64,000 bases of DNA, from assembly GCA_009914755.4 (NCBI GenBank), contig CP086569.2, positions 28,704,001-28,768,000 of the forward strand, written 5' to 3'. Below the pieces are notes generated by a model. That model did no database searches. It was not told the origin of the DNA and worked only from the letters and a program-made list of their open reading frames with translations. Of the stretch, positions 1 to 64,000 are shown in pieces. The translations under genes were made by a program, and so were the position numbers. Every line of letters starts with the position of its first letter. Within the stretch, counting starts at the first letter, position 1. Source of the DNA: the human T2T-CHM13v2.0 reference genome, Homo sapiens.

Positions 1-851
1 CATTCCATTACATTTGATCCTATTTTATTAAATTTCATTCTATTCGAGTGATTTCCTTTCGAGTCCTTTCCATTCGATTCCATTCCATTCTATTCCATTC
101 CTTTGGATTCCATTCCATTCCGTTCCGTTCACATCCATTCCTTGCGATTCCATTACATTGGATTTCTTGCCGTTCGATTCCATTCCTTTTGACTCCATTT
201 CATTCGATTCTATTCCATTCCATTAATTTCCATTCCATTCGAGACCTTTCCATTGCAGTCTTTTCACTTCGAGTCCATTCCGTTCGATACCATTCCATTC
301 GATTCCATTCCATTGGAGTCCATACCAGTCGAGTCCATTCTATTCCAGTCCATTAGTTTCCACTCCATTGCATTCGAGTGCATTCCATTCCGTGGCTGTT
401 GATTCCATTCCGTTTGATGCCATTCCATACGATTCCATTCAATTCGAGACCATTCTATTCCTGTCCATTCCTTGCGGTTCGATTCCATTTCACTCTAGTC
501 CATTCCATTCCATTCAATTCCATTCGACTCTATTCCGTTCCATTCAATTCCATTCCATTCGATTCCATTTTTGTCGAGATCCTTCCATTACACTCCCTTC
601 CATTCCAGTGCATTCCATTCCAGTCTCTTCAGTTCGATTCCATTCCATTCGTTTAGATTCCTTTCCATTCCAGCCCATTCCATTCCATTCCATTCCTTTC
701 CTTTCCGTTTCATTAGATTCCATTGCATTCCATTCCATTCAATTCAATTCCGTGCTATTCAATTTGATTCACTTCCATTTAATTCCATTCCATTAGATTC
801 CATTCCGTACGATTCCATTCCTTTTGAATCCATTCCATTGGAGTCCATTCA

Positions 852-866
852 CTTCCAGAACATTCC
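852..866. promoter_or_regulatory. Perfect heat-shock-element trimer 'cTTCcaGAAcaTTCc' (HSE site 1 of the unit)
   Basis: Matches nTTCnnGAAnnTTCn. Recurs once per unit at the same unit coordinate (see the following features). Confidence 0.35.
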
Positions 867-1605
867 ATTCCAGTCGAATCCATTCGAGTACATTCCATTA
901 AAGTTCATTACATTCTAATACATTCCATTCCATTGCATTCCATTCCATTCCATTCGATGCCATTCGATTCCATTCCATGCCAAATCATTGCATTCCTTTC
1001 CATTCCGTTCCTATCAATTCCATTCCATTCGATTTAGTTCGATTCTATTCACTTCCATTCCATTCGATTCCATTCCATTGGAGTCAATTCCTTTCGACAC
1101 CCAGCCTTTCCAGTCAATGATTTTGGATTCCATTTTTTTGCATTCCATTACATTCTATGACATTCGATTCCGTTTCATTGCATTCCATTCCATACATTTT
1201 TATTCCATTCGAGACCGTAGCATTCCACTTTATTCCAGGCCTGTCCATTACACTACATTCCCTTCCATTCCAATGAATTCCATTCCATTCCAATCCATTC
1301 CTTTCCTTTCGCTTGCATTCCATTCTATTCCCTTCTACTGCATACAATTTCACTCCATTCGTTCCCATTCCATTCAATTCCATTCCATTCAATTCCATTC
1401 CATTTGTTTCCATTCTCTTCGATTCCATTTCTTTATATTCCATGCCATTCGAATCCATTCTATTGGATTGCATTACATTCGTGTTCATTCCATTCCAGAC
1501 CATTCCATTTGACTCCATTCCTTTCGAGCCCTTTCAATTTGAGTCCATTCCTTTCCAGTCCATTTCACTCCAGTCCATTACTATCCATTCCATCCCATTC
1601 CATAC

Positions 1606-1655
1606 CATTCCATTCCATTCCATTCCATTCCATTCCATTCCATTCCATTCCATTC
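1606..1655 (+). repeat. Perfect (CATTC)10 microsatellite core; slippage-variable (9 copies in the sister copy at 50567-50611)
   Basis: Counted directly from the sequence. The flanks '…cataccattc' and 'cattg…' are identical in both copies. Confidence 0.9.
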
Positions 1656-3104
1656 CATTGCATTCCATTCCAATCCATTCCATTGCACTGCACTCCATTC
1701 CATTACATTCTACTCTATCTGAGTCGGTTTTATTGCATTAGATTCTATTCCATTGGATTACTTTCCATTCGATTACATTCCATTCATGTACATTCCATTC
1801 CAGTCAATTACATTCGAGTTCATTACATTACATTCCAGTATATTCCATTGTATTCGATCCCATTCCTTTCAATTCCATTTCATTCGACTCCATTATATTC
1901 GATTCCATTCCACTCGAATCCTTTCCATTAGAGGACATTCCATTCCAGTGCATTCCATTCCATTCCATAGCATTCCATTGCATTCGATTCCATTCCATTT
2001 GATGCCATTCCATTTGATGCCATTCCATGACATTCCATTCCATTCGAGTCCATTCCGTTCCAATTCATTCCATTCCGTTTCATGAAATTCGAGTCCTTTC
2101 CAGTACATTTCATTCCAATCCCATCCAATCCCATCTACTCCATTCAATTCCTTTCCATTCCATTTGATTTGATTCCATTGACTTGATTCCATTCATTTTG
2201 ATTCCATTCCTTGAAATTTCGTTCCATTCTATTCCATTGCATTACTTTCCATTCCATTCCATTCCATTTCATTTCAGTCCATTCGCTTCCTTTCCTTTCG
2301 ATTCAATTCCATTTGATTCCACTCCATTCTATGCGATTTCATTCCAATCGATTCAATTCCATTCGATGACATTCCTTTCGTTTCCATTCCATTCGAGTCC
2401 ATTCAATTTGAGCATTCGTGTCCATTCTATTCGAGTCCATTCCATTACCGTCTATTCTATTCCCTTCCATTCCTGTTGATTCAATTTCATTCCCTTCCAT
2501 TCGATTCCTTTCCATTCGATTCCATTCCTTTCCATTCCATTCCATTCGTTCCCATTCCATGTGATTTCATTCCATTCCAGTCCATTATATTCGAGTCCAC
2601 TCCACTCCATTCTATTACATTCAATTCCTTTTGAGTCCGTTCCATAACACTCCATTCATTTCGATTCCATTTCTTGCCAGTTTTCTTCCATTTTATTCCT
2701 TTCCGTTCGATTCCATTCCATTCGATTGCATTCCATTCGAATCCTTTCCATTCCATTTCATTCCATTCCTTTCTATTCCATTCCATTTCATTCGATTTGA
2801 TTCCATTCTGTTCTATTCCATTCAATTCTTTTTCATTCCATTCGAATCCTTTCTATTGCAGTCCATTCCAATCCCTTCCATTCCATTCCATTACAGTCCA
2901 TTCCAATAGATTCCATTCCTTTGCCTTCCATTCGAATCCATTCCATTCTAGTCCATTCCATTTGAGTCAATTCCATTCCATTCCATTCTATTCCTTTCCA
3001 ATCCATTCGATTCCATTCGATTCAATTCCATTTGATTCTCTTTCATTCTATTTTATTCCATGCCATTTGATTGCATTGCATTCCATTCCGTTTGATTCCA
3101 GTCC

Positions 3105-3119
3105 ATTCAAGAAAGTTCC
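3105..3119. promoter_or_regulatory. Perfect heat-shock-element trimer 'aTTCaaGAAagTTCc' (HSE site 2 of the unit)
   Basis: Matches nTTCnnGAAnnTTCn. Recurs once per unit. Confidence 0.35.
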
Positions 3120-4410
3120 ATTCCAGTCCATTGCTTTCCAGTCCATTCCATTCCACTCTAGTCTATTCCACTCCATTCCTTTCCATTCCATTCCATACTA
3201 TTCCATTCCATTCCTTTGCATTCCGTTTCCAATCTATTCGAGTCCATTGCATTCCACTCCAATCCATTCGATTACATTCCTTTTGATTCCCTGCCAGTCG
3301 ATTGCATTGCATACTACACCATTCCAAAGGAGTCCATTCCATTCTATCTCAAAACTTTCCATTCCACTCTGTTCGAGTCCATTCCATTCCAGTCCATTTA
3401 ATTCAAGGGCATTCCATTCCATTCCATTCCATTCCATTTCATATTATTCCATTCCATTCAATTCCATTCCAGATGATTCCATTCCATTCTATACCATTGC
3501 TCTCTGTTCCATTCCATTCCATCTGTCTCCATTCCTTTCGTTTCGATTCCTTTCCATTCCATTCCATTACATTTGATCCTATTTTATTAAATTGCATTCT
3601 ATTCGAGTGATTTCCATTCGAGTCCTTTCCATTCGATTCCATTCCATTCTATTCCATTCCTTTGGATTCCATTCTATTCCGTTCCGTTCACATCAATTCC
3701 TTGCGATTCCATTACATTCGATTTCTTGCCATTCGATTCCATTCCTTTTGACTCCATTTCATTCGATTCCATTCCATTCCATTAATTTCCATTCCATTCG
3801 AGACCTTTCCATTGCAGTCTTTTCCCTTCGAGTCCATTCCGTTCGATTCCCTTCCATTCGATTCCATTCCATTGGAGTCTGTACCAGTCGAGTCCATTCT
3901 ATTCCAGTCCATTAGTTTCGACTCCATTGCATTCGAGTGCATTCCATTCCGTGGCTGTCCATTCCATTCCGTTTGATGCCATTCCATACGATTCATTTCA
4001 ATTCGAGACCATTCTATTCCTGTCCATTCCTTGTGGTTCGATTCCATTTCACTCTAGTCCATTCCATTCCATTCAATTCCATTCGACTCTATTCCGTTCC
4101 ATTCAATTCCATTCCATTCGATTCCATTTTTTTCGAGAACCTTCCATTACACTCCCTTCCATTCCAGTGCATTCCATTCCAGTCTTTTCAGTTCGATTCC
4201 ATTCCATTCGTTTCGATTCCTTTCCATTCCAGCCCATTCCATTCCATTCCATTCCTTTCCTTTCCGTTTCATTAGATTCCATTGCATTCCATTCCATTCA
4301 ATTCAATTCCGTGCTATTCAATTTGATTCACTTCCATTTAATTCCATTCCATTAGATTCCATTCCGTACGATTCCATTCCTTTTGAATCCATTCCATTGG
4401 AGTCCATTCA

Positions 4411-4425
4411 CTTCCAGAACATTCC
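4411..4425. promoter_or_regulatory. HSE site 1 in U2 ('cttccagaacattcc')
   Basis: Same motif, 3,559 bp after the U1 site. Confidence 0.35.
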
Positions 4426-6672
4426 ATTCCAGTCGAATCCATTCGAGTACATTCCATTAAAGTTCATTACATTCTAATACATTCCATTCCATTGCATTGC
4501 ATTCCATTCCATTCGATGCCATTCGATTCCATTCCATGCCAAATCATTGCATTCCTTTCCATTCCGTTCCTATCAATTCCATTCCATTCGATTTAGTTCG
4601 ATTCTATTCACTTCCATTCCATTCGATTCCATTCCATTGGAGTCAATTCCTTTCGACACCCAGCCTTTGCAGTCAATGATTTTGGATTCCATTTTTTTGC
4701 ATTCCATTACATTCTATGACATTCGATTCCGTTTCATTGCATTCCATTCCATACATTTTTAGTCCATTCGAGACCGTAGCATTCCACTTTATTCCAGGCC
4801 TGTCCATTACACTACATTCCCTTCCATTCCAATGAATTCCATTCCATTCCAATCCATTCCTTTCCTTTCGCTTGCATTCCATTCTATTCCCTTCTACTGC
4901 ATACAATTTCACTCATTCGTTCCCATTCCATTCAATTCCATTCCATTCAATTCCATTCCATTTGTTTCCATTCTCTTCGATTCCATTTCTTTATATTCCA
5001 TGCCATTCGATTCCATTCTATTGGATTGCATTACATTCGTGTTCATTCCATTCCAGACCATTCCATTTGACTCCATTCCTTTCGAGCCCTTTCAATTTGA
5101 GTCCATTCCTTTCCAGTCCATTTCACTCCAGTCCATTACTATCCATTCCATCCCATTCCATCCCATTCCATTCCATTCCATTCCATTCCATTCCATTCCG
5201 TTCCATTCCATTGCATTCCATTCCATTCCATTCCATTGCAGTGCACTCCATTCCATTACATTCTACTCTATCTGAGTCGGTTTTATTGCATTAGATTCTA
5301 TTCCATTGGATTACTTTCCATTCGATTACATTCCATTCATGTACATTCCATTCCAGTCAATTACATTCGAGTTCATTACATTACATTCCAGTATATTCCA
5401 TTGTATTCGATCCCATTCCTTTCAATTCCATTTCATTCGACTCCATTATATTCGATTCCATTCCACTCGAATCCATTCCATTAGAGGACATTCCATTCCA
5501 ATGCATTCCATTCCATTCCATCACATTCCATTGCATTCGATTCCATTCCATTTGATGCCATTCCATTTGATGCCATTCCATGACATTCCATTCCATTCGA
5601 GTCCATTCCGTTCCAATTCATTCCATTCCGTTTCATGAAATTCGAGTCCTTTCCAGTACATTTCATTCCAATCCCATCCAATCCAATCTACTCCATTCAA
5701 TTCCTTTCCATTCCATTTGATTTGATTCCATTGATTTGATTCCATTCAGTTTGATTCCATTCCGTGAAATTTCGTTCCATTCTATTCCATTGCATTACTT
5801 TCCATTCAATTCCATTCCATTTCATTTCAGTCCATTCGCTTCCTTTCCTTTCGATTCAATTCCATTTGATTCCACTCCATTCTATGCGATTTCATTCCAA
5901 TCGATTCAATTCCATTGGATGACATTCCTTTCGTTTCCATTCCTTTCGAGTCCATTCAATTTGAGCATTCGTGTCCATTCTATTCGAGTCCATTCCATTA
6001 CCGTCTATTCTATTCCCTTCCATTCCTGTTGATTCAATTTCATTCCCTTCCATTCGATTCCTTTCCATTCGATTCCATTCCTTTCCATTCCATTCCATTC
6101 GTTCCCATTCCATGTGATTTCATTCCATTCCAGTCCATTATATTCGAGTCCACTCCACTCCATTCTATTACATTCAATTCCTTTTGAGTCCGTTCCATAA
6201 CACTCCATTCATTTCGATTCCATTTCTTGCCAGTTTTCTTCCATTTTATTCCATTCCGTTCGATTCCATTCCATTCGATTGCATTCCATTCGAATCCTTT
6301 CCATTCCATTTCATTCCATTCCTTTCTATTCCATTCCATTTCATTCGATTTGATTCCATTCTGCTCTATTCCATTCAATTCTTTTTCATTCCATTCGAAT
6401 CCTTTCTATTGCAGTCCATTCCATTCGAGTCCATTCCAATCCCTTCCATTCCATTCCATTACAGTCCATTCCAATAGATTCCATTCCTTTGCCTTCCATT
6501 CGAATCCATTCCATTCTAGTCCATTCCATTTGAGTCAATTCCATTCCATTCCATTCTATTCCTTTCCAATCCATTCGATTCCATTCGATTCAATTCCATT
6601 TGATTCTCTTTCATTCTATTTTATTCCATGCCATTTGATTGCATTGCATTCCATTCCGTTGGATTCCAGTCC

Positions 6673-6687
6673 ATTCAAGAAAGTTCC
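6673..6687. promoter_or_regulatory. HSE site 2 in U2 ('attcaagaaagttcc')
   Basis: Same motif, 3,568 bp after the U1 site. Confidence 0.35.
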
Positions 6688-7159
6688 ATTCCAGTCCATT
6701 GCTTTCCAGTCCATTCCATTCCACTCTAGTCTATTCCACTCCATTCCTTTCCATTCCATTCCATACTATTCCATTCCATTCCTTTGCATTCCGTTTCCAA
6801 TCTATTCGAGTCCATTGCATTCCAGTCCAATCCATTCCATTACATTCCTTTTGATTCCCTGCCAGTCGATTGCATTGCATACTACACCATTCCAAAGGAG
6901 TCCATTCCATTCTATCTCAACACTTTCCATTCCACTCTGTTCGAGTCCATTCCATTCCAGTCCATTTAATTCAAGGGCATTCCATTCCATTCCATTCCAT
7001 TCCATTTCATATTATTCCATTCCATTCAATTCCATTCCAGATGATTCCATTCCATTCTATACCATTGCTCTCTGTTCCATTCCATTCCATCTGTCTCCAT
7101 TCCTTTCGTTTCGATTCCTTTCCATTCCATTCCATTCCATTTGATCCTATTTTATTAAG

Positions 7160-10100
7160 TTGCATTCTATTCGAGTGATTTCCATTCGAGTCCTTTCCAT
7201 TCGATTCCATTCCATTCTATTCCATTCCTTTGGATTCCATTCCATTCCGTTCCGTTCACATCAATTAATTGCGATTCCATTACATTCGATTTCTTGCCAT
7301 TTGATTCCATTCCTTTTGACTCCATTTCATTCGATTCCATTCCATTCCATTAATTTCCATTCCATTCGAGACCTTTCCATTGCAGTCTTTTCCCTTCGAG
7401 TCCATTCCGTTCGATTCCCTTCCATTCGATTCCATTCCATTGGAGTCCGTACCAGTCGAGTCCATTCTATTCCAGTCCATTAGTTTCGACTCCATTGCAT
7501 TCGAGTGCATTCCATTCCGTGGCTGTCCATTCCATTCCGTTTGATGCCATTCCATACGATTCCGTTCAATTCGAGACCATTCTATTCCTGTCCATTCCTT
7601 GTGGTTCGATTCCATTTCACTCTAGTCCATTCCATTCCATTCAATTCCATTCGACTCTATTCCGTTCCATTCAATTCCATTCCATTCGATTCCATTTTTT
7701 TCGAGAACCTTCCATTACACTCCCTTCCATTCCAGTGCATTCCATTCCAGTCTCTTCAGTTCGATTCCATTCCATTCGTTTCGATTCCTTTCCATTCCAG
7801 CCCATTCCATTCCATTCCATTCCTTTCCTTTCCGTTTCATTAGATTCCATTGCATTCCATTCCATTCAATTCAATTCCGTGCTATTCAATTTGATTCACT
7901 TCCATTTAATTCCATTCCATTAGATTCCATTCCGTACGATTCCATTCCTTTTGAATCCATTCCATTGGAGTCCATTCACTTCCAGAACATTCCATTCCAG
8001 TCGAATCCATTCGAGTACATTCCATTAAAGTTCATTACATTCTAATACATTCCATTCCATTGCATTCCATTCCATTCCATTCGATGCCATTCGATTCCAT
8101 TCCATGCCAAATCATTGCATTCCTTTCCATTCCGTTCCTATCAATTCCATTCCATTCGATTTAGTTCGATTCTATTCACTTCCATTCCATTCGATTCCAT
8201 TCCATTGGAGTCAATTCCTTTCGACACCCAGCCTTTCCAGTCAATGATTTTGGATTCCATTTTTTTGCATTCCATTACATTCTATGACATTCGATTCCGT
8301 TTCATTGCATTCCATTCCATACATTTTTAGTCCATTCGAGACCGTAGCATTCCACTTTATTCCAGGCCTGTCCATTACACTACATTCCCTTCCATTCCAA
8401 TGAATTCCATTCCATTCCAATCCATTCCTTTCCTTTCGCTTGCATTCCATTCTATTCCCTTCTACTGCATACAATTTCACTCATTCGTTCCCATTCCATT
8501 CAATTCCATTCCATTCAATTCCATTCCATTTGTTTCCATTCTCTTCGATTCCATTTCTTTATATTCCATGCCATTCGAATCCATTCTATTGGATTGCATT
8601 ACATTCGTGTTCATTCCATTCCAGACCATTCCATTTGACTCCATTCCTTTCGAGCCCTTTCAATTTGAGTCCATTCCTTTCCAGTCCATTTCACTCCAGT
8701 CCATTACTATCCATTCCATCCCATTCCATCCCATTCCATTCCATTCCATTCCATTCCATTCCATTCCATTCCGTTCCATTCCATTGCATTCCATTCCATT
8801 CCATTCCATTGCACTGCACTCCATTCCATTACATTCTACTCTATCTGAGTCGGTTTTATTGCATTAGATTCTATTCCATTGGATTACTTTCCATTCGATT
8901 ACATTCCATTCATGTACATTCCATTCCAGTCAATTACATTCGAGTTCATTACATTACATTCCAGTATATTCCATTGTATTCGATCCCATTCCTTTCAATT
9001 CCATTTCATTCGACTCCATTATATTCGATTCCATTCCACTCGAATCCATTCCATTAGAGGACATTCCATTCCAATGCATTCCATTCCATTCCATCACATT
9101 CCATTGCATTCGATTCCATTCCATTTGATGCCATTCCATTTGATGCCATTCCATGACATTCCATTCCATTCGAGTCCATTCCGTTCCAATTCATTCCATT
9201 CCGTTTCATGAAATTCGAGTCCTTTCCAGTACATTTCATTCCAATCCCATCCAATCCAATCTACTCCATTCAATTCCTTTCCATTCCATTTGATTTGATT
9301 CCATTGATTTGATTCCATTCAGTTTGATTCCATTCCGTGAAATTTCGTTCCATTCTATTCCATTGCATTACTTTCCATTCAATTCCATTCCATTTCATTT
9401 CAGTCCATTCGCTTCCTTTCCTTTCGATTCAATTCCATTTGATTCCACTCCATTCTATGCGATTTCATTCCAATCGATTCAATTCCATTGGATGACATTC
9501 CTTTCGTTTCCATTCCTTTCGAGTCCATTCAATTTGAGCATTCGTGTCCATTCTATTCGAGTCCATTCCATTACCGTCTATTCTATTCCCTTCCATTCCT
9601 GTTGATTCAATTTCATTCCCTTCCATTCGATTCCTTTCCATTCGATTCCATTCCTTTCCATTCCATTCCATTCGTTCCCATTCCATGTGATTTCATTCCA
9701 TTCCAGTCCATTATATTCGAGTCCACTCCACTCCATTCTATTACATTCAATTCCTTTTGAGTCCGTTCCATAACACTCCATTCATTTCGATTCCATTTCT
9801 TGCCAGTTTTCTTCCATTTTATTCCATTCCGTTCGATTCCATTCCATTCGATTGCATTCCATTCGAATCCTTTCCATTCCATTTCATTCCATTCCTTTCT
9901 ATTCCATTCCATTTCATTCGATTTGATTCCATTCTGTTCTATTCCATTCAATTCTTTTTCATTCCATTCGAATCCTTTCTATTGCAGTCCATTCCATTCG
10001 AGTCCATTCCAATCCCTTCCATTCCATTCCATTACAGTCCATTCCAATAGATTCCATTCCTTTGCCTTCCATTCGAATCCATTCCATTCTAGTCCATTCC

Positions 10101-10732
10101 ATTTGAGTCAATTCCATTCCATTCCATTCTATTCCTTTCCAATCCATTCGATTCCATTCGATTCAATTCCATTTGATTCTCTTTCATTCTATTTTATTCC
10201 ATGCCATTTGATTGCATTGCATTCCATTCCGTTGGATTCCAGTCCATTCAAGAAAGTTCCATTCCAGTCCATTGCTTTCCAGTCCATTCCATTCCACTCT
10301 AGTCTATTCCACTCCATTCCTTTCCATTCCATTCCATACTATTCCATTCCATTCCTTTGCATTCCGTTTCCAATCTATTCGAGTCCATTGCATTCCAGTC
10401 CAATCCATTCCATTACATTCCTTTTGATTCCCTGCCAGTCGATTGCATTGCATACTACACCATTCCAAAGGAGTCCATTCCATTCTATCTCAACACTTTC
10501 CATTCCACTCTGTTCGAGTCCATTCCATTCCAGTCCATTTAATTCAAGGGCATTCCATTCCATTCCATTCCATTCCATTTCATATTATTCCATTCCATTC
10601 AATTCCATTCCAGATGATTCCATTCCATTCTATACCATTGCTCTCTGTTCCATTCCATTCCATCTGTCTCCATTCCTTTCGTTTCGATTCCTTTCCATTC
10701 CATTCCATTCCATTTGATCCTATTTTATTAAG
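7160..10732 (+). repeat. HOR unit U3 (3,573 bp), A-type
   Basis: Landmark periodicity. Identical to U17 (56116-59688) in the ORF track. Confidence 0.8.
7979..7993. promoter_or_regulatory. HSE site 1 in U3
   Basis: Same motif 'cttccagaacattcc'. Confidence 0.35.
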
Positions 10733-48400: not shown

Positions 48401-49008
48401 CTTTCGAATCCATTCGATTCCATTCGATTCAATTCCATTTGATTCTCTTTCATTCTATTTTATTCCATGCCATTTGATTGCATTGCATTCCATTCCGTTT
48501 GATTCCAGTCCATTCAAGAAAGTTCCATTCCAGTCCATTGCTTTCGAGACCATTCCATTCCACTCTAGTCTATTCCACTCCATTCCTTTCCATTCCATTC
48601 CATACTTTTCCATTCCATTCCTTTGCATTCCGTTTCCAATCTATTCGAGTCCATTGCATTCCAGTCCAATCCATTCGATTACATTCCTTTTGATTCCCTG
48701 CCAGTCGATTGCATTGCATACTAGACCATTCCAAAGGAGTCCATTCCATTCTATTTCAACACTTTCCATTCCACTCTGTTCGAGTCCATTCCATTCCAGT
48801 CCATTTAATTTAAGGGCATTCCATTCCATTCCATTCCATTTCATATTATTCCATTCCATTCAATTCCATTCCAGATGATTCCATTCCATTCTATGCCATT
48901 GCTCTCTGTTCCATTCCATTACATCTGTCTCCATTCCTTTCGTTTCGATTCCTTTCCATTCCATTCCATTACATTTGATCCTATTTTATTAAATTTCATT
49001 CTATTCGA
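45450..49008 (+). repeat. HOR unit U14 (3,559 bp), diverged C-type (GGCC lost: 'ccagccctg' ~46653-46661)
   Basis: Landmark periodicity. Shares C-type variants with U13. Confidence 0.7.
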
Positions 49009-52000: not shown

Positions 52001-52547
52001 ATTCTATTTTATTCCATGCCATTTGATTGCATTGCATTCCATTCCGTTTGATTCCAGTCCATTCAAGAAAGTTCCATTCCAGTCCATTGCTTTCCAGTCC
52101 ATTCCATTCCACTCTAGTCTATTCCACTCCATTCCTTTCCATTCCATTCCATACTATTCCATTCCATTCCTTTGCATTCCGTTTCCAATCTATTCGAGTC
52201 CATTGCATTCCACTCCAATCCATTCGATTACATTCCTTTTGATTCCCTGCCAGTCGATTGCATTGCATACTACACCATTCCAAAGGAGTCCATTCCATTC
52301 TATCTCAAAACTTTCCATTCCACTCTGTTCGAGTCCATTCCATTCCAGTCCATTTAATTCAAGGGCATTCCATTCCATTCCATTCCATTCCATTTCATAT
52401 TATTCCATTCCATTCAATTCCATTCCAGATGATTCCATTCCATTCTATACCATTGCTCTCTGTTCCATTCCATTCCATCTGTCTCCATTCCTTTCGTTTC
52501 GATTCCTTTCCATTCCATTCCATTACATTTGATCCTATTTTATTAAA
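49009..52547 (+). repeat. HOR unit U15 (3,539 bp), A-type; super-repeat copy of U1
   Basis: Identical to U1 except for one CATTC pentamer fewer (50567-50611 versus 1606-1655) and a G/A difference at 172 versus 49133. Confidence 0.8.
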
Positions 52548-55500
52548 TTGCATTCTATTCGAGTGATTTCCATTCGAGTCCTTTCCATTCGATTCCATTC
52601 CATTCTATTCCATTCCTTTGGATTCCATTCTATTCCGTTCCGTTCACATCAATTCCTTGCGATTCCATTACATTCGATTTCTTGCCATTCGATTCCATTC
52701 CTTTTGACTCCATTTCATTCGATTCCATTCCATTCCATTAATTTCCATTCCATTCGAGACCTTTCCATTGCAGTCTTTTCCCTTCGAGTCCATTCCGTTC
52801 GATTCCCTTCCATTCGATTCCATTCCATTGGAGTCTGTACCAGTCGAGTCCATTCTATTCCAGTCCATTAGTTTCGACTCCATTGCATTCGAGTGCATTC
52901 CATTCCGTGGCTGTCCATTCCATTCCGTTTGATGCCATTCCATACGATTCATTTCAATTCGAGACCATTCTATTCCTGTCCATTCCTTGTGGTTCGATTC
53001 CATTTCACTCTAGTCCATTCCATTCCATTCAATTCCATTCGACTCTATTCCGTTCCATTCAATTCCATTCCATTCGATTCCATTTTTTTCGAGAACCTTC
53101 CATTACACTCCCTTCCATTCCAGTGCATTCCATTCCAGTCTTTTCAGTTCGATTCCATTCCATTCGTTTCGATTCCTTTCCATTCCAGCCCATTCCATTC
53201 CATTCCATTCCTTTCCTTTCCGTTTCATTAGATTCCATTGCATTCCATTCCATTCAATTCAATTCCGTGCTATTCAATTTGATTCACTTCCATTTAATTC
53301 CATTCCATTAGATTCCATTCCGTACGATTCCATTCCTTTTGAATCCATTCCATTGGAGTCCATTCACTTCCAGAACATTCCATTCCAGTCGAATCCATTC
53401 GAGTACATTCCATTAAAGTTCATTACATTCTAATACATTCCATTCCATTGCATTGCATTCCATTCCATTCGATGCCATTCGATTCCATTCCATGCCAAAT
53501 CATTGCATTCCTTTCCATTCCGTTCCTATCAATTCCATTCCATTCGATTTAGTTCGATTCTATTCACTTCCATTCCATTCGATTCCATTCCATTGGAGTC
53601 AATTCCTTTCGACACCCAGCCTTTGCAGTCAATGATTTTGGATTCCATTTTTTTGCATTCCATTACATTCTATGACATTCGATTCCGTTTCATTGCATTC
53701 CATTCCATACATTTTTAGTCCATTCGAGACCGTAGCATTCCACTTTATTCCAGGCCTGTCCATTACACTACATTCCCTTCCATTCCAATGAATTCCATTC
53801 CATTCCAATCCATTCCTTTCCTTTCGCTTGCATTCCATTCTATTCCCTTCTACTGCATACAATTTCACTCATTCGTTCCCATTCCATTCAATTCCATTCC
53901 ATTCAATTCCATTCCATTTGTTTCCATTCTCTTCGATTCCATTTCTTTATATTCCATGCCATTCGATTCCATTCTATTGGATTGCATTACATTCGTGTTC
54001 ATTCCATTCCAGACCATTCCATTTGACTCCATTCCTTTCGAGCCCTTTCAATTTGAGTCCATTCCTTTCCAGTCCATTTCACTCCAGTCCATTACTATCC
54101 ATTCCATCCCATTCCATCCCATTCCATTCCATTCCATTCCATTCCATTCCATTCCGTTCCATTCCATTGCATTCCATTCCATTCCATTCCATTGCAGTGC
54201 ACTCCATTCCATTACATTCTACTCTATCTGAGTCGGTTTTATTGCATTAGATTCTATTCCATTGGATTACTTTCCATTCGATTACATTCCATTCATGTAC
54301 ATTCCATTCCAGTCAATTACATTCGAGTTCATTACATTACATTCCAGTATATTCCATTGTATTCGATCCCATTCCTTTCAATTCCATTTCATTCGACTCC
54401 ATTATATTCGATTCCATTCCACTCGAATCCATTCCATTAGAGGACATTCCATTCCAATGCATTCCATTCCATTCCATCACATTCCATTGCATTCGATTCC
54501 ATTCCATTTGATGCCATTCCATTTGATGCCATTCCATGACATTCCATTCCATTCGAGTCCATTCCGTTCCAATTCATTCCATTCCGTTTCATGAAATTCG
54601 AGTCCTTTCCAGTACATTTCATTCCAATCCCATCCAATCCAATCTACTCCATTCAATTCCTTTCCATTCCATTTGATTTGATTCCATTGATTTGATTCCA
54701 TTCAGTTTGATTCCATTCCGTGAAATTTCGTTCCATTCTATTCCATTGCATTACTTTCCATTCAATTCCATTCCATTTCATTTCAGTCCATTCGCTTCCT
54801 TTCCTTTCGATTCAATTCCATTTGATTCCACTCCATTCTATGCGATTTCATTCCAATCGATTCAATTCCATTGGATGACATTCCTTTCGTTTCCATTCCT
54901 TTCGAGTCCATTCAATTTGAGCATTCGTGTCCATTCTATTCGAGTCCATTCCATTACCGTCTATTCTATTCCCTTCCATTCCTGTTGATTCAATTTCATT
55001 CCCTTCCATTCGATTCCTTTCCATTCGATTCCATTCCTTTCCATTCCATTCCATTCGTTCCCATTCCATGTGATTTCATTCCATTCCAGTCCATTATATT
55101 CGAGTCCACTCCACTCCATTCTATTACATTCAATTCCTTTTGAGTCCGTTCCATAACACTCCATTCATTTCGATTCCATTTCTTGCCAGTTTTCTTCCAT
55201 TTTATTCCATTCCGTTCGATTCCATTCCATTCGATTGCATTCCATTCGAATCCTTTCCATTCCATTTCATTCCATTCCTTTCTATTCCATTCCATTTCAT
55301 TCGATTTGATTCCATTCTGCTCTATTCCATTCAATTCTTTTTCATTCCATTCGAATCCTTTCTATTGCAGTCCATTCCATTCGAGTCCATTCCAATCCCT
55401 TCCATTCCATTCCATTACAGTCCATTCCAATAGATTCCATTCCTTTGCCTTCCATTCGAATCCATTCCATTCTAGTCCATTCCATTTGAGTCAATTCCAT

Positions 55501-56115
55501 TCCATTCCATTCTATTCCTTTCCAATCCATTCGATTCCATTCGATTCAATTCCATTTGATTCTCTTTCATTCTATTTTATTCCATGCCATTTGATTGCAT
55601 TGCATTCCATTCCGTTGGATTCCAGTCCATTCAAGAAAGTTCCATTCCAGTCCATTGCTTTCCAGTCCATTCCATTCCACTCTAGTCTATTCCACTCCAT
55701 TCCTTTCCATTCCATTCCATACTATTCCATTCCATTCCTTTGCATTCCGTTTCCAATCTATTCGAGTCCATTGCATTCCAGTCCAATCCATTCCATTACA
55801 TTCCTTTTGATTCCCTGCCAGTCGATTGCATTGCATACTACACCATTCCAAAGGAGTCCATTCCATTCTATCTCAACACTTTCCATTCCACTCTGTTCGA
55901 GTCCATTCCATTCCAGTCCATTTAATTCAAGGGCATTCCATTCCATTCCATTCCATTCCATTTCATATTATTCCATTCCATTCAATTCCATTCCAGATGA
56001 TTCCATTCCATTCTATACCATTGCTCTCTGTTCCATTCCATTCCATCTGTCTCCATTCCTTTCGTTTCGATTCCTTTCCATTCCATTCCATTCCATTTGA
56101 TCCTATTTTATTAAG
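52548..56115 (+). repeat. HOR unit U16 (3,568 bp), copy of U2
   Basis: Same length as U2 and identical ORF-track translations. Confidence 0.8.
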
Positions 56116-59100
56116 TTGCATTCTATTCGAGTGATTTCCATTCGAGTCCTTTCCATTCGATTCCATTCCATTCTATTCCATTCCTTTGGATTCCATTCCA
56201 TTCCGTTCCGTTCACATCAATTAATTGCGATTCCATTACATTCGATTTCTTGCCATTTGATTCCATTCCTTTTGACTCCATTTCATTCGATTCCATTCCA
56301 TTCCATTAATTTCCATTCCATTCGAGACCTTTCCATTGCAGTCTTTTCCCTTCGAGTCCATTCCGTTCGATTCCCTTCCATTCGATTCCATTCCATTGGA
56401 GTCCGTACCAGTCGAGTCCATTCTATTCCAGTCCATTAGTTTCGACTCCATTGCATTCGAGTGCATTCCATTCCGTGGCTGTCCATTCCATTCCGTTTGA
56501 TGCCATTCCATACGATTCCGTTCAATTCGAGACCATTCTATTCCTGTCCATTCCTTGTGGTTCGATTCCATTTCACTCTAGTCCATTCCATTCCATTCAA
56601 TTCCATTCGACTCTATTCCGTTCCATTCAATTCCATTCCATTCGATTCCATTTTTTTCGAGAACCTTCCATTACACTCCCTTCCATTCCAGTGCATTCCA
56701 TTCCAGTCTCTTCAGTTCGATTCCATTCCATTCGTTTCGATTCCTTTCCATTCCAGCCCATTCCATTCCATTCCATTCCTTTCCTTTCCGTTTCATTAGA
56801 TTCCATTGCATTCCATTCCATTCAATTCAATTCCGTGCTATTCAATTTGATTCACTTCCATTTAATTCCATTCCATTAGATTCCATTCCGTACGATTCCA
56901 TTCCTTTTGAATCCATTCCATTGGAGTCCATTCACTTCCAGAACATTCCATTCCAGTCGAATCCATTCGAGTACATTCCATTAAAGTTCATTACATTCTA
57001 ATACATTCCATTCCATTGCATTCCATTCCATTCCATTCGATGCCATTCGATTCCATTCCATGCCAAATCATTGCATTCCTTTCCATTCCGTTCCTATCAA
57101 TTCCATTCCATTCGATTTAGTTCGATTCTATTCACTTCCATTCCATTCGATTCCATTCCATTGGAGTCAATTCCTTTCGACACCCAGCCTTTCCAGTCAA
57201 TGATTTTGGATTCCATTTTTTTGCATTCCATTACATTCTATGACATTCGATTCCGTTTCATTGCATTCCATTCCATACATTTTTAGTCCATTCGAGACCG
57301 TAGCATTCCACTTTATTCCAGGCCTGTCCATTACACTACATTCCCTTCCATTCCAATGAATTCCATTCCATTCCAATCCATTCCTTTCCTTTCGCTTGCA
57401 TTCCATTCTATTCCCTTCTACTGCATACAATTTCACTCATTCGTTCCCATTCCATTCAATTCCATTCCATTCAATTCCATTCCATTTGTTTCCATTCTCT
57501 TCGATTCCATTTCTTTATATTCCATGCCATTCGAATCCATTCTATTGGATTGCATTACATTCGTGTTCATTCCATTCCAGACCATTCCATTTGACTCCAT
57601 TCCTTTCGAGCCCTTTCAATTTGAGTCCATTCCTTTCCAGTCCATTTCACTCCAGTCCATTACTATCCATTCCATCCCATTCCATCCCATTCCATTCCAT
57701 TCCATTCCATTCCATTCCATTCCATTCCGTTCCATTCCATTGCATTCCATTCCATTCCATTCCATTGCACTGCACTCCATTCCATTACATTCTACTCTAT
57801 CTGAGTCGGTTTTATTGCATTAGATTCTATTCCATTGGATTACTTTCCATTCGATTACATTCCATTCATGTACATTCCATTCCAGTCAATTACATTCGAG
57901 TTCATTACATTACATTCCAGTATATTCCATTGTATTCGATCCCATTCCTTTCAATTCCATTTCATTCGACTCCATTATATTCGATTCCATTCCACTCGAA
58001 TCCATTCCATTAGAGGACATTCCATTCCAATGCATTCCATTCCATTCCATCACATTCCATTGCATTCGATTCCATTCCATTTGATGCCATTCCATTTGAT
58101 GCCATTCCATGACATTCCATTCCATTCGAGTCCATTCCGTTCCAATTCATTCCATTCCGTTTCATGAAATTCGAGTCCTTTCCAGTACATTTCATTCCAA
58201 TCCCATCCAATCCAATCTACTCCATTCAATTCCTTTCCATTCCATTTGATTTGATTCCATTGATTTGATTCCATTCAGTTTGATTCCATTCCGTGAAATT
58301 TCGTTCCATTCTATTCCATTGCATTACTTTCCATTCAATTCCATTCCATTTCATTTCAGTCCATTCGCTTCCTTTCCTTTCGATTCAATTCCATTTGATT
58401 CCACTCCATTCTATGCGATTTCATTCCAATCGATTCAATTCCATTGGATGACATTCCTTTCGTTTCCATTCCTTTCGAGTCCATTCAATTTGAGCATTCG
58501 TGTCCATTCTATTCGAGTCCATTCCATTACCGTCTATTCTATTCCCTTCCATTCCTGTTGATTCAATTTCATTCCCTTCCATTCGATTCCTTTCCATTCG
58601 ATTCCATTCCTTTCCATTCCATTCCATTCGTTCCCATTCCATGTGATTTCATTCCATTCCAGTCCATTATATTCGAGTCCACTCCACTCCATTCTATTAC
58701 ATTCAATTCCTTTTGAGTCCGTTCCATAACACTCCATTCATTTCGATTCCATTTCTTGCCAGTTTTCTTCCATTTTATTCCATTCCGTTCGATTCCATTC
58801 CATTCGATTGCATTCCATTCGAATCCTTTCCATTCCATTTCATTCCATTCCTTTCTATTCCATTCCATTTCATTCGATTTGATTCCATTCTGTTCTATTC
58901 CATTCAATTCTTTTTCATTCCATTCGAATCCTTTCTATTGCAGTCCATTCCATTCGAGTCCATTCCAATCCCTTCCATTCCATTCCATTACAGTCCATTC
59001 CAATAGATTCCATTCCTTTGCCTTCCATTCGAATCCATTCCATTCTAGTCCATTCCATTTGAGTCAATTCCATTCCATTCCATTCTATTCCTTTCCAATC

Positions 59101-59688
59101 CATTCGATTCCATTCGATTCAATTCCATTTGATTCTCTTTCATTCTATTTTATTCCATGCCATTTGATTGCATTGCATTCCATTCCGTTGGATTCCAGTC
59201 CATTCAAGAAAGTTCCATTCCAGTCCATTGCTTTCCAGTCCATTCCATTCCACTCTAGTCTATTCCACTCCATTCCTTTCCATTCCATTCCATACTATTC
59301 CATTCCATTCCTTTGCATTCCGTTTCCAATCTATTCGAGTCCATTGCATTCCAGTCCAATCCATTCCATTACATTCCTTTTGATTCCCTGCCAGTCGATT
59401 GCATTGCATACTACACCATTCCAAAGGAGTCCATTCCATTCTATCTCAACACTTTCCATTCCACTCTGTTCGAGTCCATTCCATTCCAGTCCATTTAATT
59501 CAAGGGCATTCCATTCCATTCCATTCCATTCCATTTCATATTATTCCATTCCATTCAATTCCATTCCAGATGATTCCATTCCATTCTATACCATTGCTCT
59601 CTGTTCCATTCCATTCCATCTGTCTCCATTCCTTTCGTTTCGATTCCTTTCCATTCCATTCCATTCCATTTGATCCTATTTTATTAAG
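56116..59688 (+). repeat. HOR unit U17 (3,573 bp), copy of U3
   Basis: Same length as U3 and identical ORF-track translations. Confidence 0.8.
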
Positions 59689-62600
59689 TTGCATTCTATT
59701 CGAGTGATTTCCATTCGAGTCCTTTCCATTCGATTCCATTCCATTCTATTCCATTCCTTTGGATTCCATTCCATTCCGTTCCGTTCACATCAATTAATTG
59801 CGATTCCATTACATTCGATTTCTTGCCATTTGATTCCATTCCTTTTGACTCCATTTCATTCGATTCCATTCCATTCCATTAATTTCCATTCCATTCGAGA
59901 CCTTTCCATTGCAGTCTTTTCCCTTCGAGTCCATTCCGTTCGATTCCCTTCTATTCGATTCCATTCCATTGGAGTCCGTACCAGTCGAGTCCATTCTATT
60001 CCAGTCCATTAGTTTCGACTCCATTGCATTCGAGTGCATTCCATTCCGTGGCTGTCCATTCCATTCCGTTTGATGCCATTCCATACGATTCCATTCAATT
60101 CGAGACCATTCTATTCCTGTCCATTCCTTGCGGTTCGATTCCATTTCACTCTAGTCCATTCCATTCCATTCAATTCCATTCGACTCTATTCCGTTCCATT
60201 CAATTCCATTCCATTCGATTCCATTTTTTTCGAGAACCTTCCATTACACTCCCTTCCATTCCAGTGCATTCCATTCCAGTCTCTTCAGTTCGATTCCATT
60301 CCATTCGTTTAGATTCCTTTCCATTCCAGCCCATTCCATTCCATTCCATTCCTTTCCTTTCCGTTTCATTAGATTCCATTGCATTCCATTCCATTCAATT
60401 CAATTCCGTGCTATTCAATTTGATTCACTTCCATTTAATTCCATTCCATTAGATTCCATTCCGTACGATTCCATTCCTTTTGAATCCATTCCATTGGAGT
60501 CCATTCACTTCCAGAACATTCCATTCCAGTCGAATCCATTCGAGTACATTCCATTAAAGTTCATTACATTCTAATACATTCCATTCCATTGCATTCCATT
60601 CCATTCCATTCGATGCCATTCGATTCCATTCCATGCCAAATCATTGCATTCCTTTCCATTCCGTTCCTATCAATTCCATTCCATTCGATTTAGTTCGATT
60701 CTATTCACTTCCATTCCATTCGATTCCATTCCATTGGAGTCAATTCCTTTCGACACCCAGCCTTTGCAGTCAATGATTTTGGATTCCATTTTTTTGCATT
60801 CCATTACATTCTATGACATTCGATTCCGTTTCATTGCATTCCATTCCATACATTTTTATTCCATTCGAGACCGTAGCATTCCACTTTATTCCAGGCCTGT
60901 CCATTACACTACATTCCCTTCCATTCCAATGAATTCCATTCCATTCCAATCCATTCCTTTCCTTTCGCTTGCATTCCATTCTATTCCCTTCTACTGCATA
61001 CAATTTCACTCCATTCGTTCCCATTCCATTCAATTCCATTCCATTCAATTCCATTCCATTTGTTTCCATTCTCTTCGATTCCATTTCTTTATATTCCATG
61101 CCATTCGATTCCATTCTAATGGATTGCATTACATTCGTGTTCATTCCATTCCAGACCATTCCATTTGACTCCATTCCTTTCGAGCCCTTTCAATTTGAGT
61201 CCATTCCTTTCCAGTCCATTTCACTCCAGTCCATTACTATCCATTCCATACCATTCCATCCCATTCCATTCCATTCCATTCCATTCCATTCCATTCCATT
61301 CCATTGCATTCCATTCCATTCCATTCCATTGCACTGCACTCCATTCCATTACATTCTACTCTATCTGAGTCGGTTTTATTGCATTAGATTCTATTCCATT
61401 GGATTACTTTCCATTCGATTACATTCCATTCATGTACATTCCATTCCAGTCAATTACATTCGAGTTCATTACATTACATTCCAGTATATTCCATTGTATT
61501 CGATCCCATTCCTTTCAATTCCATTTCATTCGACTCCATTATATTCGATTCCATTCCACTCGAATCCATTCCATTAGAGGACATTCCATTCCAATGCATT
61601 CCATTCCATTCCATAACATTCCATTGCATTCGATTCCATTCCATTTGATGCCATTCCATTTGATGCCATTCCATGACATTCCATTCCATTCGAGTCCATT
61701 CCGTTCCAATTCATTCCATTCCTTTTCATGAAATTCGAGTCCTTTCCAGTACATTTCATTCCAATCCCATCCAATCCAATCTACTCCATTCAATTCCTTT
61801 CCATTCCATTTGATTAGATTCCATTGATTTGATTCCATTCAGTTTGATTCCATTCCGTGAAATTTCGTTCCATTCTATTCCATTGCATTACTTTCCATTC
61901 AATTCCATTCCATTTCATTTCAGTCCATTCGCTTCCTTTCCTTTCGATTCAATTCCATTTGATTCCACTCCATTCTATGCGATTTCATTCCAATCGATTC
62001 AATTCCATTCGATGACATTCCTTTCGTTTCCATTCCATTCGAGTCCATTCAATTTGAGCATTCGTGTCCATTCTATTCGAGTCCATTCCATTACCGTCTA
62101 TTCTATTCCCTTCCATTCCTGTTGATTCAATTTCATTCCCTTCTATTCGATTCCTTTCCATTCGATTCCATTCCTTTCCATTCCATTCCATTCGTTCCCA
62201 TTCCATCTGATTTCATTCCATTCCAGTCCATTATATTCGAGTCCACTCCACTCCATTCTATTACATTCAATTCCTTTTGAGTCCGTTCCATAACACTCCA
62301 TTAATTTCGATTCCATTTCTTGCCAGTTTTCTTCCATTTTATTCCATTCCGTTCGATTCCATTCCATTCGATTGCATTCCATTCGAATCCTTTCCATTCC
62401 ATTTCATTCCATTCCTTTCTATTCCATTCCATTTCATTCGATTTGATTCCATTCTGTTCTATTCCATTCAATTCTTTTTCATTCCATTCGAATCCTTTCT
62501 ATTGCAGTCCATTCCATTCGAGTCCATTCCAGTCCCTTCCATTCCATTCCATTACAGTCCATTGCAATAGATTCCATTCCTTTGCCTTCCATTCGAATCC

Positions 62601-63252
62601 ATTCCATTCTAGTCCATTCCATTTGAGTCAATTCCATTCCATTCCATTCTATTCCTTTCCAATCCATTCGATTCCATTCGATTCAATTCCATTTGATTCT
62701 CTTTCATTCTATTTTATTCCATGCCATTTGATTGCATTGCATTCCATTCCGTTTGATTCCAGTCCATTCAAGAAAGTTCCATTCCAGTCCATTGCTTTCC
62801 AGTCTATTCCATTCCACTCTAGTCTATTCCACTCCATTCCTTTCCATTCCATTCCATACTATTCCATTCCATTCCTTTGCATTCCGTTTCCAATCTATTC
62901 GAGTCCATTGCATTCCAGTCCAATCCATTCGATTACATTCCTTTTGATTCCCTGCCAGTCGATTGCATTGCATACTACACCATTCCAAAGGAGTCCATTC
63001 CATTCTATCTCAACACTTTCCATTCCACTCTGTTCGAGTCCATTCCATTCCAGTCCATTTAATTCAAGGGCATTCCATTCCATTCCATTCCATTCCATTT
63101 CATATTATTCCATTCCATTCAATTCCATTCCAGATGATTCCATTCCATTCTATACCATTGCTCTCTGTTCCATTCCATTCCATCTGTCTCCATTCCTTTC
63201 GTTTCGATTCCTTTCCATTCCATTCCATTACATTTGATCCTATTTTATTAAA
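59689..63252 (+). repeat. HOR unit U18 (3,564 bp), copy of U4
   Basis: Same length as U4 and identical ORF-track translations. Confidence 0.8.
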
Positions 63253-64000
63253 TTGCATTCTATTCGAGTGATTTCCATTCGAGTCCTTTCCATTCGATTC
63301 CATTCCATTCTATTCCATTCCTTTGGATTCCATTCCATTCCGTTCCGTTCACATCAATTCCTTGCGATTCCATTACATTCGATTTCTTGCCATTCGATTC
63401 CATTCCTTTTGACTCCATTTCATTCGATTCCATTCCATTCCATTAATTTCCATTCCATTCGAGACCTTTCCATTGCAGTCTTTTCCCTTCGAGTCCATTC
63501 CGTTCGATTCCCTTCCATTCGATTCCATTCCATTGGAGTCCGTACCAGTCGAGTCCATTCTATTCCAGTCCATTAGTTTCGACTCCATTGCATTCGAGTG
63601 CATTCCATTCCGTGGCTGTCCATTCCATTCCGTTTGATGCCATTCCATACGATTCCATTCAATTCGAGACCATTCTATTCCTGTCCATTCCTTGCGGTTC
63701 GATTCCATTTCACTCTAGTCCATTCCATTCCATTCAATTCCATTCGACTCTATTCCGTTCCATTCAATTCCATTCCATTCGATTCCATTTTTTTCGAGAA
63801 CCTTCCATTACACTCCCTTCCATTCCAGTGCATTCCATTCCAGTCTCTTCAGTTCGATTCCATTCCATTCGTTTAGATTCCTTTCCATTCCAGCCCATTC
63901 CATTCCATTCCATTCCTTTCCTTTCCGTTTCATTAGATTCCATTGCATTCCATTCCATTCAATTCAATTCCGTGCTATTCAATTTGATTCACTTCCATTT
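63253..64000 (+). repeat. HOR unit U19 (partial, 748 bp), copy of the start of U5
   Basis: ORF-track translations identical to 14297-15044. Confidence 0.75.

What the first reader, a model, noticed from the sequence alone, without database searches (positions are those of the whole stretch)
1..64000. ~48.96-kb super-repeat: first 15 kb and last 15 kb of the window are near-identical
Units U1-U4 plus the start of U5 (1-15044) reappear at 48962-64000 with matching unit lengths (3544/3568/3573/3564 versus 3539/3568/3573/3564) and essentially identical six-frame translations. Adjacent units inside each copy differ from one another far more. Sequence identity between units is therefore a function of distance modulo ~49 kb, not of adjacency. 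That signals a very recent tandem amplification of a ~13.75-unit block, a much higher order of organisation than the 3.56-kb HOR. The boundaries and copy number cannot be seen from this window.
Basis: seen in the sequence. Interest (0 to 1): 0.7.

Follow-up and report, generated by a model that had tools for sequence, protein, structure and literature searches.

The report
Recent 49-kb duplication inside Y-chromosome satellite
The window is human Y-chromosome DYZ1 satellite DNA in which a block of 14 repeat units (about 49 kb) was copied recently, so the first and last 15 kb are almost identical; this is real but is the ordinary, already described way such arrays grow.

Summary
Positions 1-15044 and 48962-64000 are 99.95% identical: two substitutions and one 5-bp pentamer indel, with a 10,684-bp exact match. 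Every other unit lag gives 1.4-2.0% mean divergence.

The window is 18.2 units of a ~3.56-kb repeat built from (CATTC)n. It meets the sequence criteria of human DYZ1 / HSat3A6, the Yq12 heterochromatin satellite.

The period is not 13.75 units. It is 14 units in register, and one of them (U12) carries an 878-bp internal deletion.

The best explanation is a recent in-register unequal exchange, or an equivalent replication-based event, that duplicated a 14-unit block. From two substitutions it dates to roughly 170 generations at the published Yq12 rate, or about 2,200 at a euchromatic Y rate.

Recent nested tandem duplications in Yq12, attributed to unequal exchange, are already described for the T2T-Y assembly.

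The window cannot show copy number, block boundaries or read support. So "identity is a function of distance modulo 49 kb" is over-generalised from a single pair of copies. Interest is low: a correct observation of a known process.

The parts
1..15044 (+). Copy A of the near-identical segment (U1-U4 and the first 780 bases of U5). Its left end is cut by the window edge.
   Evidence: It is 99.953% identical to 48962-64000. The differences are listed.
48962..64000 (+). Copy B of the near-identical segment (U15-U18 and partial U19). Its right end is cut by the window edge.
   Evidence: A 10,684-bp exact match at offset 48,956 starts at 1610.
1..48961 (+). One full period in an arbitrary phase: 14 DYZ1 units (U1-U14), 48,961 bp in copy A and 48,956 bp after the pentamer loss.
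   Evidence: Unit starts from blastn with U1, unit table and lag table.
39201..41873 (+). U12, a truncated unit of 2,673 bp. It has an 878-bp internal deletion with junction 41047|41048, between two ~22-bp intra-unit direct repeats TCCTTTC(A/C)ATTCCATTTCATTC. This is why the period is not a multiple of 3.56 kb, and it is a unique marker of the block.
   Evidence: The 38-mer spanning the junction is unique in the window even with 3 mismatches allowed.
41874..48961 (+). U13-U14, a divergent variant pair. They are 3.3-3.9% from all other units and 2.1% from each other, with 114 shared variant alignment columns spread over the whole unit.
21402..41873 (+). An older local 2-unit (7.14-kb) layer. 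U7/U9/U11 differ by about 0.5% and U8/U10 by 0.34%, with U12 as the deleted partner.
   Evidence: The 20-mer peak at offsets 7137/7138 is, and the 2,836-bp exact match at offset 7,138 is.
172..172 (+). Difference 1: G in copy A versus A at 49133. All 18 other units have A, so G is a private derived A>G change in U1.
1605..1609 (+). Difference 2: one CCATT pentamer more in copy A than in copy B (at 50565/50566), inside a (CCATT)n run. It is a slippage-type change.
12294..12294 (+). Difference 3: C in U4 versus A in U18 (61250). A is also the state of U6-U14 and C that of U1-U5, so this may be a point mutation or a short gene conversion from a paralogous unit.

Best explanation
The window is part of a human Y-chromosome DYZ1 (HSat3A6) array in Yq12. 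It consists of ~3.56-kb nested tandem repeat units derived from (CATTC)n.

Within this array a block of 14 consecutive units (about 48.96 kb, including one unit with an 878-bp deletion and two divergent variant units) was duplicated in tandem. The duplication was in register with the unit phase. The most likely mechanism is unequal sister-chromatid exchange between units 14 positions apart. A replication-based template switch or break-induced replication would give the same product.

The two copies have since acquired only two substitutions and one pentamer slippage in 15 kb. The event is therefore young: a few hundred generations at the measured Yq12 rate, or a few thousand at a euchromatic rate.

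It sits on top of an older 2-unit (7.14-kb) duplication layer. This is the usual hierarchical growth of satellite arrays.

Shown: the identity pattern, the unit structure, and the sequence-level DYZ1 criteria. Inferred: the mechanism, that copy length equals spacing, the date, and the Y-chromosomal location.
For: Family identity
- TRF finds period 5 with consensus TTCCA over 53-7141.
- There are 18.2 units of 3519-3583 bp, excluding the truncated U12.
- The HSat3A6-specific 24-mer of Altemose 2014 Table 1 occurs 30 times. The marker 24-mers of the 13 other HSat2/3 subfamilies occur 0 times.
- A virtual HaeIII digest gives fragments of 3554-3573 bp. Hallast 2023 reports a modal 3,569-bp HaeIII fragment.
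- GC is 38.8% and CpG density is 1 per 36 bp. Hallast gives 38% and 1 per 35 bp for DYZ1.
- The classic DYZ1 sexing primers, recalled from memory, hit once per unit and define a 154-bp amplicon.
- Related contigs that are 97-99.6% identical occur as contaminants, including one in a human gut metagenome. Rhie 2023 predicted this.

Duplication
- The two copies are 99.953% identical over 15,044 bp, against 98.8% or less at other shifts.
- Divergence at lag 14 is 0.02%, against 1.4-2.0% at other lags.
- There is a 10,684-bp exact match.
- The order of unit-specific variants is preserved (U2=U16, U3=U17).
- The period equals 14 units once the U12 deletion is counted, which means the exchange was in register.
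- The differences are ordinary mutation types.

Mechanism context
- Rhie 2023 reports iterative tandem duplications in Yq12 consistent with unequal exchange. It also reports sister-chromatid exchanges in Yq12 in about 15% of Strand-seq libraries.
- Porubsky 2025 reports about one de novo whole-unit structural variant per Y transmission in Yq12 and an SNV rate of 3.86e-7 per bp per generation.
Against: - Only 1.3 periods are visible. Both ends of the match are cut by the window edges, so it is not shown that the copy is a full 49 kb long (tandem) rather than a copy of 15 kb or more placed 49 kb away.
- No reads are available, so an assembly false duplication cannot be excluded.
- No recombinant junction can be recognised, as expected for homologous in-register exchange. 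The mechanism is therefore inferred, not observed.
- Chromosomal origin cannot be verified directly, because none of the tools holds a human genome collection.
- The date depends on a rate that includes gene conversion. Conversion could also erase or add differences.
Confidence: 0.8

Rival explanations
1. There is a true multi-copy 49-kb higher-order periodicity. The 14-unit block is repeated three or more times (possibly many), forming a third nested level: 5 bp, 3.56 kb, 49 kb.
For: The identity at lag 14 runs to both window edges without decay. Rhie 2023 describes the Yq12 duplications as iterative.
Against: Nothing in the window speaks to a third copy. The U12 junction 38-mer was not found in any metagenome or bacterial-genome contaminant contig. 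A generic DYZ1 23-mer was found in 39 stretches of DNA from those collections, so the block-specific junction is not abundant. This is weak evidence, because few contigs are sampled.
Confidence: 0.22
2. It is an assembly artefact. The assembler placed the same reads twice (a false duplication) in a satellite array, and the few differences are consensus errors.
For: Satellite arrays are the hardest regions to assemble. One of the three differences is a pentamer-count change in a (CCATT)n run, which is a class of change that can also be a consensus error.
Against: The two substitutions are not typical long-read consensus errors. One is a private A>G and the other matches the state of paralogous units. 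The 34 kb between the copies is distinct sequence with its own markers (U12 deletion, U13/U14 variants, 2-unit layer), and the join is in phase. Recent duplications of this type are validated in T2T-Y.
Confidence: 0.07
3. It is a long-tract non-reciprocal copying event (gene conversion or break-induced replication). This overwrote 15 kb or more of a pre-existing stretch 14 units away, with no change in array length.
For: Porubsky 2025 infers that 29% of Yq12 de novo SNVs are conversion-like. The third difference (61250 A) matches paralogous units.
Against: Conversion tracts are usually far shorter than 15 kb (established knowledge, not tested here). The match reaches both window edges, and all indel-length variants of four successive units are copied exactly. 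A duplication explains this more simply.
Confidence: 0.06

Closest known systems
DYZ1 / HSat3A6 satellite of human Yq12 (3.56-kb HaeIII repeat; Altemose 2014, Rhie 2023, Hallast 2023)
   Same: It shares the pentamer CATTC/TTCCA base, unit lengths of 3.55-3.58 kb, the subfamily-specific 24-mer, the HaeIII periodicity, 38.8% GC and a CpG density of 1 per 36 bp.
   Different: No tested feature differs. Location on the Y chromosome could not be checked with the collections available.
Recent iterative tandem duplications in Yq12 (Rhie et al. 2023, Extended Data Fig. 8: exact 2000-mer dotplot; unequal exchange)
   Same: It has direct-orientation copies and multi-kilobase exact matches (10,684 bp here). 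It is nested on older layers and lies inside DYZ satellite sequence.
   Different: The events highlighted in that paper are up to 5 Mb and span several DYZ1/DYZ2 blocks. The smaller-scale events it illustrates are in HSat1B sub-arrays. This one is 49 kb and lies wholly inside a DYZ1 array. I found no paper that lists this particular event.
Layered expansions and recent intra-array duplications in alpha-satellite HOR arrays (Altemose et al. 2022)
   Same: Satellite growth is hierarchical. Blocks of many repeat units are duplicated, and young copies are more alike than neighbouring units.
   Different: It is a different satellite family with no centromere function. The DYZ1 unit is a nested tandem repeat, not a HOR of discrete monomers.

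Membership tests
DYZ1 / HSat3A6 | Derived from the tandem pentamer CATTC (TTCCA) | tested here: met
   TRF finds period 5 with consensus TTCCA and 64% matches over 53-7141. There are 4,330 exact CATTC on the + strand and 5 GGAAT.
DYZ1 / HSat3A6 | Nested repeat unit of about 3.56-3.6 kb | tested here: met
   There are 17 full units of 3519-3583 bp and one unit of 2,673 bp with a deletion. The 20-mer offset peaks lie at 3544-3579.
DYZ1 / HSat3A6 | Subfamily-specific 24-mer TCGTTTCGATTCCTTTCCATTCCA (Altemose 2014, Table 1) | tested here: met
   It has 30 exact occurrences. The marker 24-mers of the 13 other HSat2/3 subfamilies have 0 occurrences.
DYZ1 / HSat3A6 | One HaeIII (GGCC) site per unit, giving fragments of about 3.56 kb | tested here: met
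   Fragments are 3554-3573 bp. Fragments of 6.2-10.7 kb arise where the site is mutated. Hallast reports a modal fragment of 3,569 bp.
DYZ1 / HSat3A6 | About 38% GC and about 1 CpG per 35 bp | tested here: met
   GC is 38.8% and CpG density is 1 per 36 bp.
DYZ1 / HSat3A6 | Male-specific, located in Yq12 | not testable with these tools
   No human genome collection is available. There is only indirect support: the DYZ1 sexing primers (recalled from memory) hit once per unit, and contaminant contigs include one from a human gut metagenome.
Recent tandem duplication by unequal exchange within a satellite array | Copies in direct orientation, far more alike than the background identity between units | tested here: met
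   Divergence is 0.02% at lag 14, against 1.4-2.0% at other lags. There is a 10,684-bp exact match.
Recent tandem duplication by unequal exchange within a satellite array | Exchange in register with the repeat unit (period equal to a whole number of units) | tested here: met
   The period is 14 units, and the odd length is explained by the 878-bp deletion in U12.
Recent tandem duplication by unequal exchange within a satellite array | Copy length equals copy spacing (head-to-tail, no spacer) | tested here: inconclusive
   The match runs from window base 1 to base 64000. Only 15,044 of a possible 48,956 bp of overlap can be seen.
Recent tandem duplication by unequal exchange within a satellite array | Supported by reads spanning both copies | not testable with these tools
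   No read data are available.
Higher-order periodic repeat (multi-copy 49-kb super-unit) | Three or more successive copies at the same period | not testable with these tools
   The window covers 1.3 periods.

The most novel reading that the evidence does not exclude
The 14-unit, 48.96-kb block may be a stable third level of periodicity in this DYZ1 array rather than a one-off duplication. In that case it would be repeated many times over hundreds of kilobases (5 bp, 3.56 kb, 49 kb). The U12 deletion junction and the U13/U14 variant pair would serve as its recurring landmarks. Such a block could be haplogroup-specific and usable as a marker of Yq12 array evolution.
Probability: 0.2. Interest if true: 0.3.

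Novelty: already known. Interest (0 to 1): 0.15.

Why it matters
It matters little beyond being a clean worked example. It shows at base resolution how a Yq12 satellite array grows by in-register duplication of multi-unit blocks on top of older layers.

It also gives unique markers that would let this particular event be counted and dated in long reads or in other Y assemblies. These are the 38-mer across the U12 deletion junction and the three differences between the copies.

It does not open a new question. Rapid size change of DYZ1 by unequal exchange, recent nested duplications and a raised mutation and conversion rate in Yq12 are all published.

Tried and rejected
- **Junction marker scans.** I scanned metagenome contigs and genome contigs for the 38-mer across the U12 deletion junction, hoping for independent copies of the block. 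Both scans returned 0 hits.
- **Generic DYZ1 scans.** I scanned the same collections for a generic DYZ1 23-mer and got 39 loci. All are 74-99.6% identical to window units and none reaches 99.9%, so none is a copy of this block.
- **Long metagenome contigs.** Three contigs of 52-55 kb (BNJT01001888.1, BNJU01004413.1, BNJU01001848.1) might have shown similar super-structure in another male. Only 2.6-11.8 kb pieces of them were returned, and they are noisy (90-98% identity with many gaps). They were uninformative.
- **Primer citation.** I looked for a paper printing the DYZ1 sexing primers. None in the library holds the sequences, so the primer identity rests on memory only.
- **Rfam.** A scan at gathering thresholds gave no match.
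- **ORFs.** There are 21 ORFs of 200 aa or more, all on the + strand with TTG starts. I rejected them as mechanical, because CATTC repeats contain no stop codon in the + frames.
- **Fractional block.** I rejected the 13.75-unit reading, because the U12 deletion accounts for the odd length.
- **Foreign insertion.** I rejected an insertion of foreign sequence as the cause of the odd period. Composition is flat across the window, and the unit alignment shows no insertion longer than a few pentamers.
Full report
**What the window is**

The whole 64-kb window is one uninterrupted satellite array. Base composition is flat, at 38-40% GC with strong C-over-G and T-over-A skew throughout.

Tandem Repeats Finder reports a 5-bp period with consensus TTCCA. 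Exact CATTC occurs 4,330 times on the + strand.

A second period of about 3.56 kb lies on top of the pentamer. Using the first 3,559 bases as a probe, blastn finds 18 successive copies. I numbered them U1 to U19. Full units are 3,519-3,583 bp, U12 (39201-41873) is only 2,673 bp, and U19 is cut by the window end.

**Which satellite family it belongs to**

The sequence meets every sequence-level criterion I could test for human DYZ1, also called HSat3A6, the Y-specific HSat3 subfamily of Yq12.

- The HSat3A6-specific 24-mer in Table 1 of Altemose et al. 2014 (PMC4022460) occurs 30 times. The marker 24-mers of the 13 other HSat2/3 subfamilies in that table do not occur at all.
- A virtual HaeIII digest gives fragments of 3,554-3,573 bp. 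Hallast et al. 2023 used the same digest and found 3,569 bp as the modal DYZ1 fragment.
- GC content is 38.8% and CpG density is one per 36 bp. Hallast et al. give 38% and one per 35 bp for DYZ1.
- The two classic DYZ1 sexing primers each hit once per unit and define a 154-bp amplicon. I recalled them from memory and could not find them printed in the paper library.

A 23-mer from the unit also picked up 39 stretches of DNA in public collections. Six are in assemblies labelled as bacteria, and one is in a contig labelled human gut metagenome. They are up to 99.6% identical to window units. This is the human-satellite contamination that Rhie et al. 2023 reported.

Location on the Y chromosome itself could not be tested, because no human genome collection is available here.

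**Checking the observation**

Positions 1-15044 align to 48962-64000 at 99.953% identity, with 2 mismatches and one 5-base gap.

The same 15 kb shifted by one unit gives 98.83% identity, with 120 mismatches and 57 gap bases. Shifts of 2-7 units give 98.0-98.5%.

Unit by unit, U2=U16 and U3=U17 are identical. U1/U15 differ by 0.06% and U4/U18 by 0.03%.

Mean divergence at a lag of 14 units is 0.02%, against 1.41-2.02% at each of lags 1 to 13.

The longest exact match in the window is 10,684 bp at offset 48,956. The longest that belongs to a different relationship is 2,836 bp at offset 7,138. This is far beyond chance and beyond the background homogeneity of the array.

**The three differences between the copies**

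- **172 G vs 49133 A.** All other units have A, so G is a private derived change in U1.
- **1605-1609.** Copy A has one more CCATT pentamer than copy B, inside a (CCATT)n run.
- **12294 C vs 61250 A.** A is the state of U6-U14 and C the state of U1-U5. This could be a point mutation or a short conversion from a paralogous unit.

The period is not 13.75 units. It is 14 units in register. U12 has lost 878 bp internally between two ~22-bp direct repeats, TCCTTTC(A/C)ATTCCATTTCATTC, that flank the missing segment in intact units. The junction is at 41047|41048. The duplication therefore respected the unit phase, as expected from homologous exchange between units 14 positions apart.

In a fixed phase the first unit is 3,559 vs 3,554 bp rather than 3,544 vs 3,539. 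The 5-bp difference and the other three lengths are as stated.

**Older layers inside the block**

The block is internally heterogeneous.

- U13 and U14 (41874-48961) are a distinct variant pair. They are 3.3-3.9% from every other unit and 2.1% from each other. Their 114 shared variant columns are spread evenly along the unit.
- U7-U12 show an older two-unit (7.14-kb) layer. U7, U9 and U11 are about 0.5% apart and U8 and U10 are 0.34% apart.

The visible hierarchy is therefore 5 bp, then 3.56 kb, then a local 7.14-kb layer at about 0.4% divergence, then 48.96 kb at 0.02%.

**Most likely mechanism**

The best-supported explanation is a recent in-register tandem duplication of a 14-unit block. 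The likely cause is unequal sister-chromatid exchange, because the male-specific Y has no homologue to pair with. A replication-based template switch would give the same product and cannot be told apart from sequence.

This part is inference. Homologous in-register exchange leaves no recognisable junction, and the block phase is arbitrary.

The literature supports the context. Rhie et al. 2023 describe recent iterative tandem duplications in Yq12 that are consistent with unequal exchange. They also found sister-chromatid exchanges in Yq12 in about 15% of Strand-seq libraries. Porubsky et al. 2025 found about one de novo whole-unit structural variant per Y transmission in Yq12. They measured an SNV rate of 3.86e-7 per bp per generation, with 29% of the changes conversion-like.

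**Dating**

Two substitutions in 15,039 aligned bases give the following estimates.

| Rate used | Generations (95% Poisson interval) |
|---|---|
| Yq12 rate, 3.86e-7 per bp per generation (Porubsky 2025) | about 172 (21-622) |
| Euchromatic Y rate, about 3e-8 (value from memory) | about 2,200 (270-8,000) |

The event is young on the scale of human Y lineages, but it is not necessarily a few generations old.

**Rival explanations**

- **Multi-copy 49-kb periodicity.** Three or more copies cannot be tested in 1.3 periods. The U12 junction 38-mer was absent from collections in which a generic DYZ1 23-mer was found in 39 stretches. This is weak evidence against high abundance.
- **Assembly false duplication.** This cannot be excluded without reads. 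It is made less likely by two base substitutions of ordinary mutational type and by 34 kb of distinct, in-phase sequence between the copies.
- **Long-tract conversion or break-induced replication patch.** This would need a tract of at least 15 kb that reproduces all length variants of four successive units.

**Novelty and verdict**

The thing observed is an ordinary instance of a published process in a classic satellite.

I found no paper that lists this particular 49-kb event. However, exact-match dotplots of the entire Yq region and the inference of nested recent duplications are already in Rhie et al. 2023. The concept of layered expansions in satellite arrays is in Altemose et al. 2022.

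The claim that identity depends on distance modulo 49 kb is an extrapolation from one pair of copies. Interest is low.

Noticed in passing
window 39201-41873 (junction 41047|41048): Unit U12 has an 878-bp internal deletion. It lies between two ~22-bp direct repeats, TCCTTTC(A/C)ATTCCATTTCATTC, that flank the missing segment in intact units. This looks like an intra-unit homology-mediated deletion. The 38-mer across the junction is unique in the window and absent from the public contig collections scanned.
   Followed up: yes
window 41874-48961: Units U13 and U14 are a distinct DYZ1 variant pair. They are 3.3-3.9% divergent from all other units and 2.1% from each other. Their 114 shared variant alignment columns are spread evenly over the unit. 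Where this variant lineage comes from is unexplained; it could be a relic of the array periphery or an import from another array.
   Followed up: partly
window 21402-41873: There is an older two-unit (7.14-kb) duplication layer. U7/U9/U11 are about 0.5% apart and U8/U10 are 0.34% apart. A 2,836-bp exact match lies at offset 7,138 (22641 vs 29779).
   Followed up: partly
window 22625-22647, 26204-26226, 33342-33364, 40424-40446, 46641-46663: The unit's single HaeIII site (GGCC) is mutated to GACC in U7, U8, U10 and U12 and to GCCC in U14. A HaeIII digest here would therefore give 6.2-10.7-kb fragments instead of 3.56 kb. U7 lacks the site although its closest relatives U9 and U11 keep it, which hints at a short conversion or a recurrent CpG-independent change.
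   Followed up: no
window 35682-39200 (U11), alignment column 2004: U11 shares a 15-bp deletion with the divergent units U13 and U14, although it is otherwise of the U7/U9 type. It may be a mosaic or conversion patch.
   Followed up: no
L001-L006 (e.g. L001 = BMRF01000076.1, Actinomadura cremea JCM 3308, 3,637 bp): Contigs deposited in bacterial genome assemblies are 98.4-99.6% identical to window units over their full length. The assemblies are Actinomadura, Streptomyces, Streptosporangium, Senimuribacter and a Polyangiaceae MAG. This is human Y-satellite contamination of those assemblies.
   Followed up: partly
L029 (ERZ1036477 NODE-110, 7,186 bp): Two adjacent DYZ1 units in this metagenome contig are 99.945% identical (2 mismatches in 3,625 bp). 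Neighbouring units in the window are far less alike (0.45-3.7% divergent). Either homogeneity differs strongly between array regions, or short-read assembly collapsed the variants.
   Followed up: no
window, + strand, e.g. 40937-42229 and 16621-17835: There are 21 open reading frames of 200-430 aa, all on the + strand with TTG starts. They arise mechanically, because CATTC-derived sequence has no stop codon in the + frames. They are not evidence of genes.
   Followed up: partly
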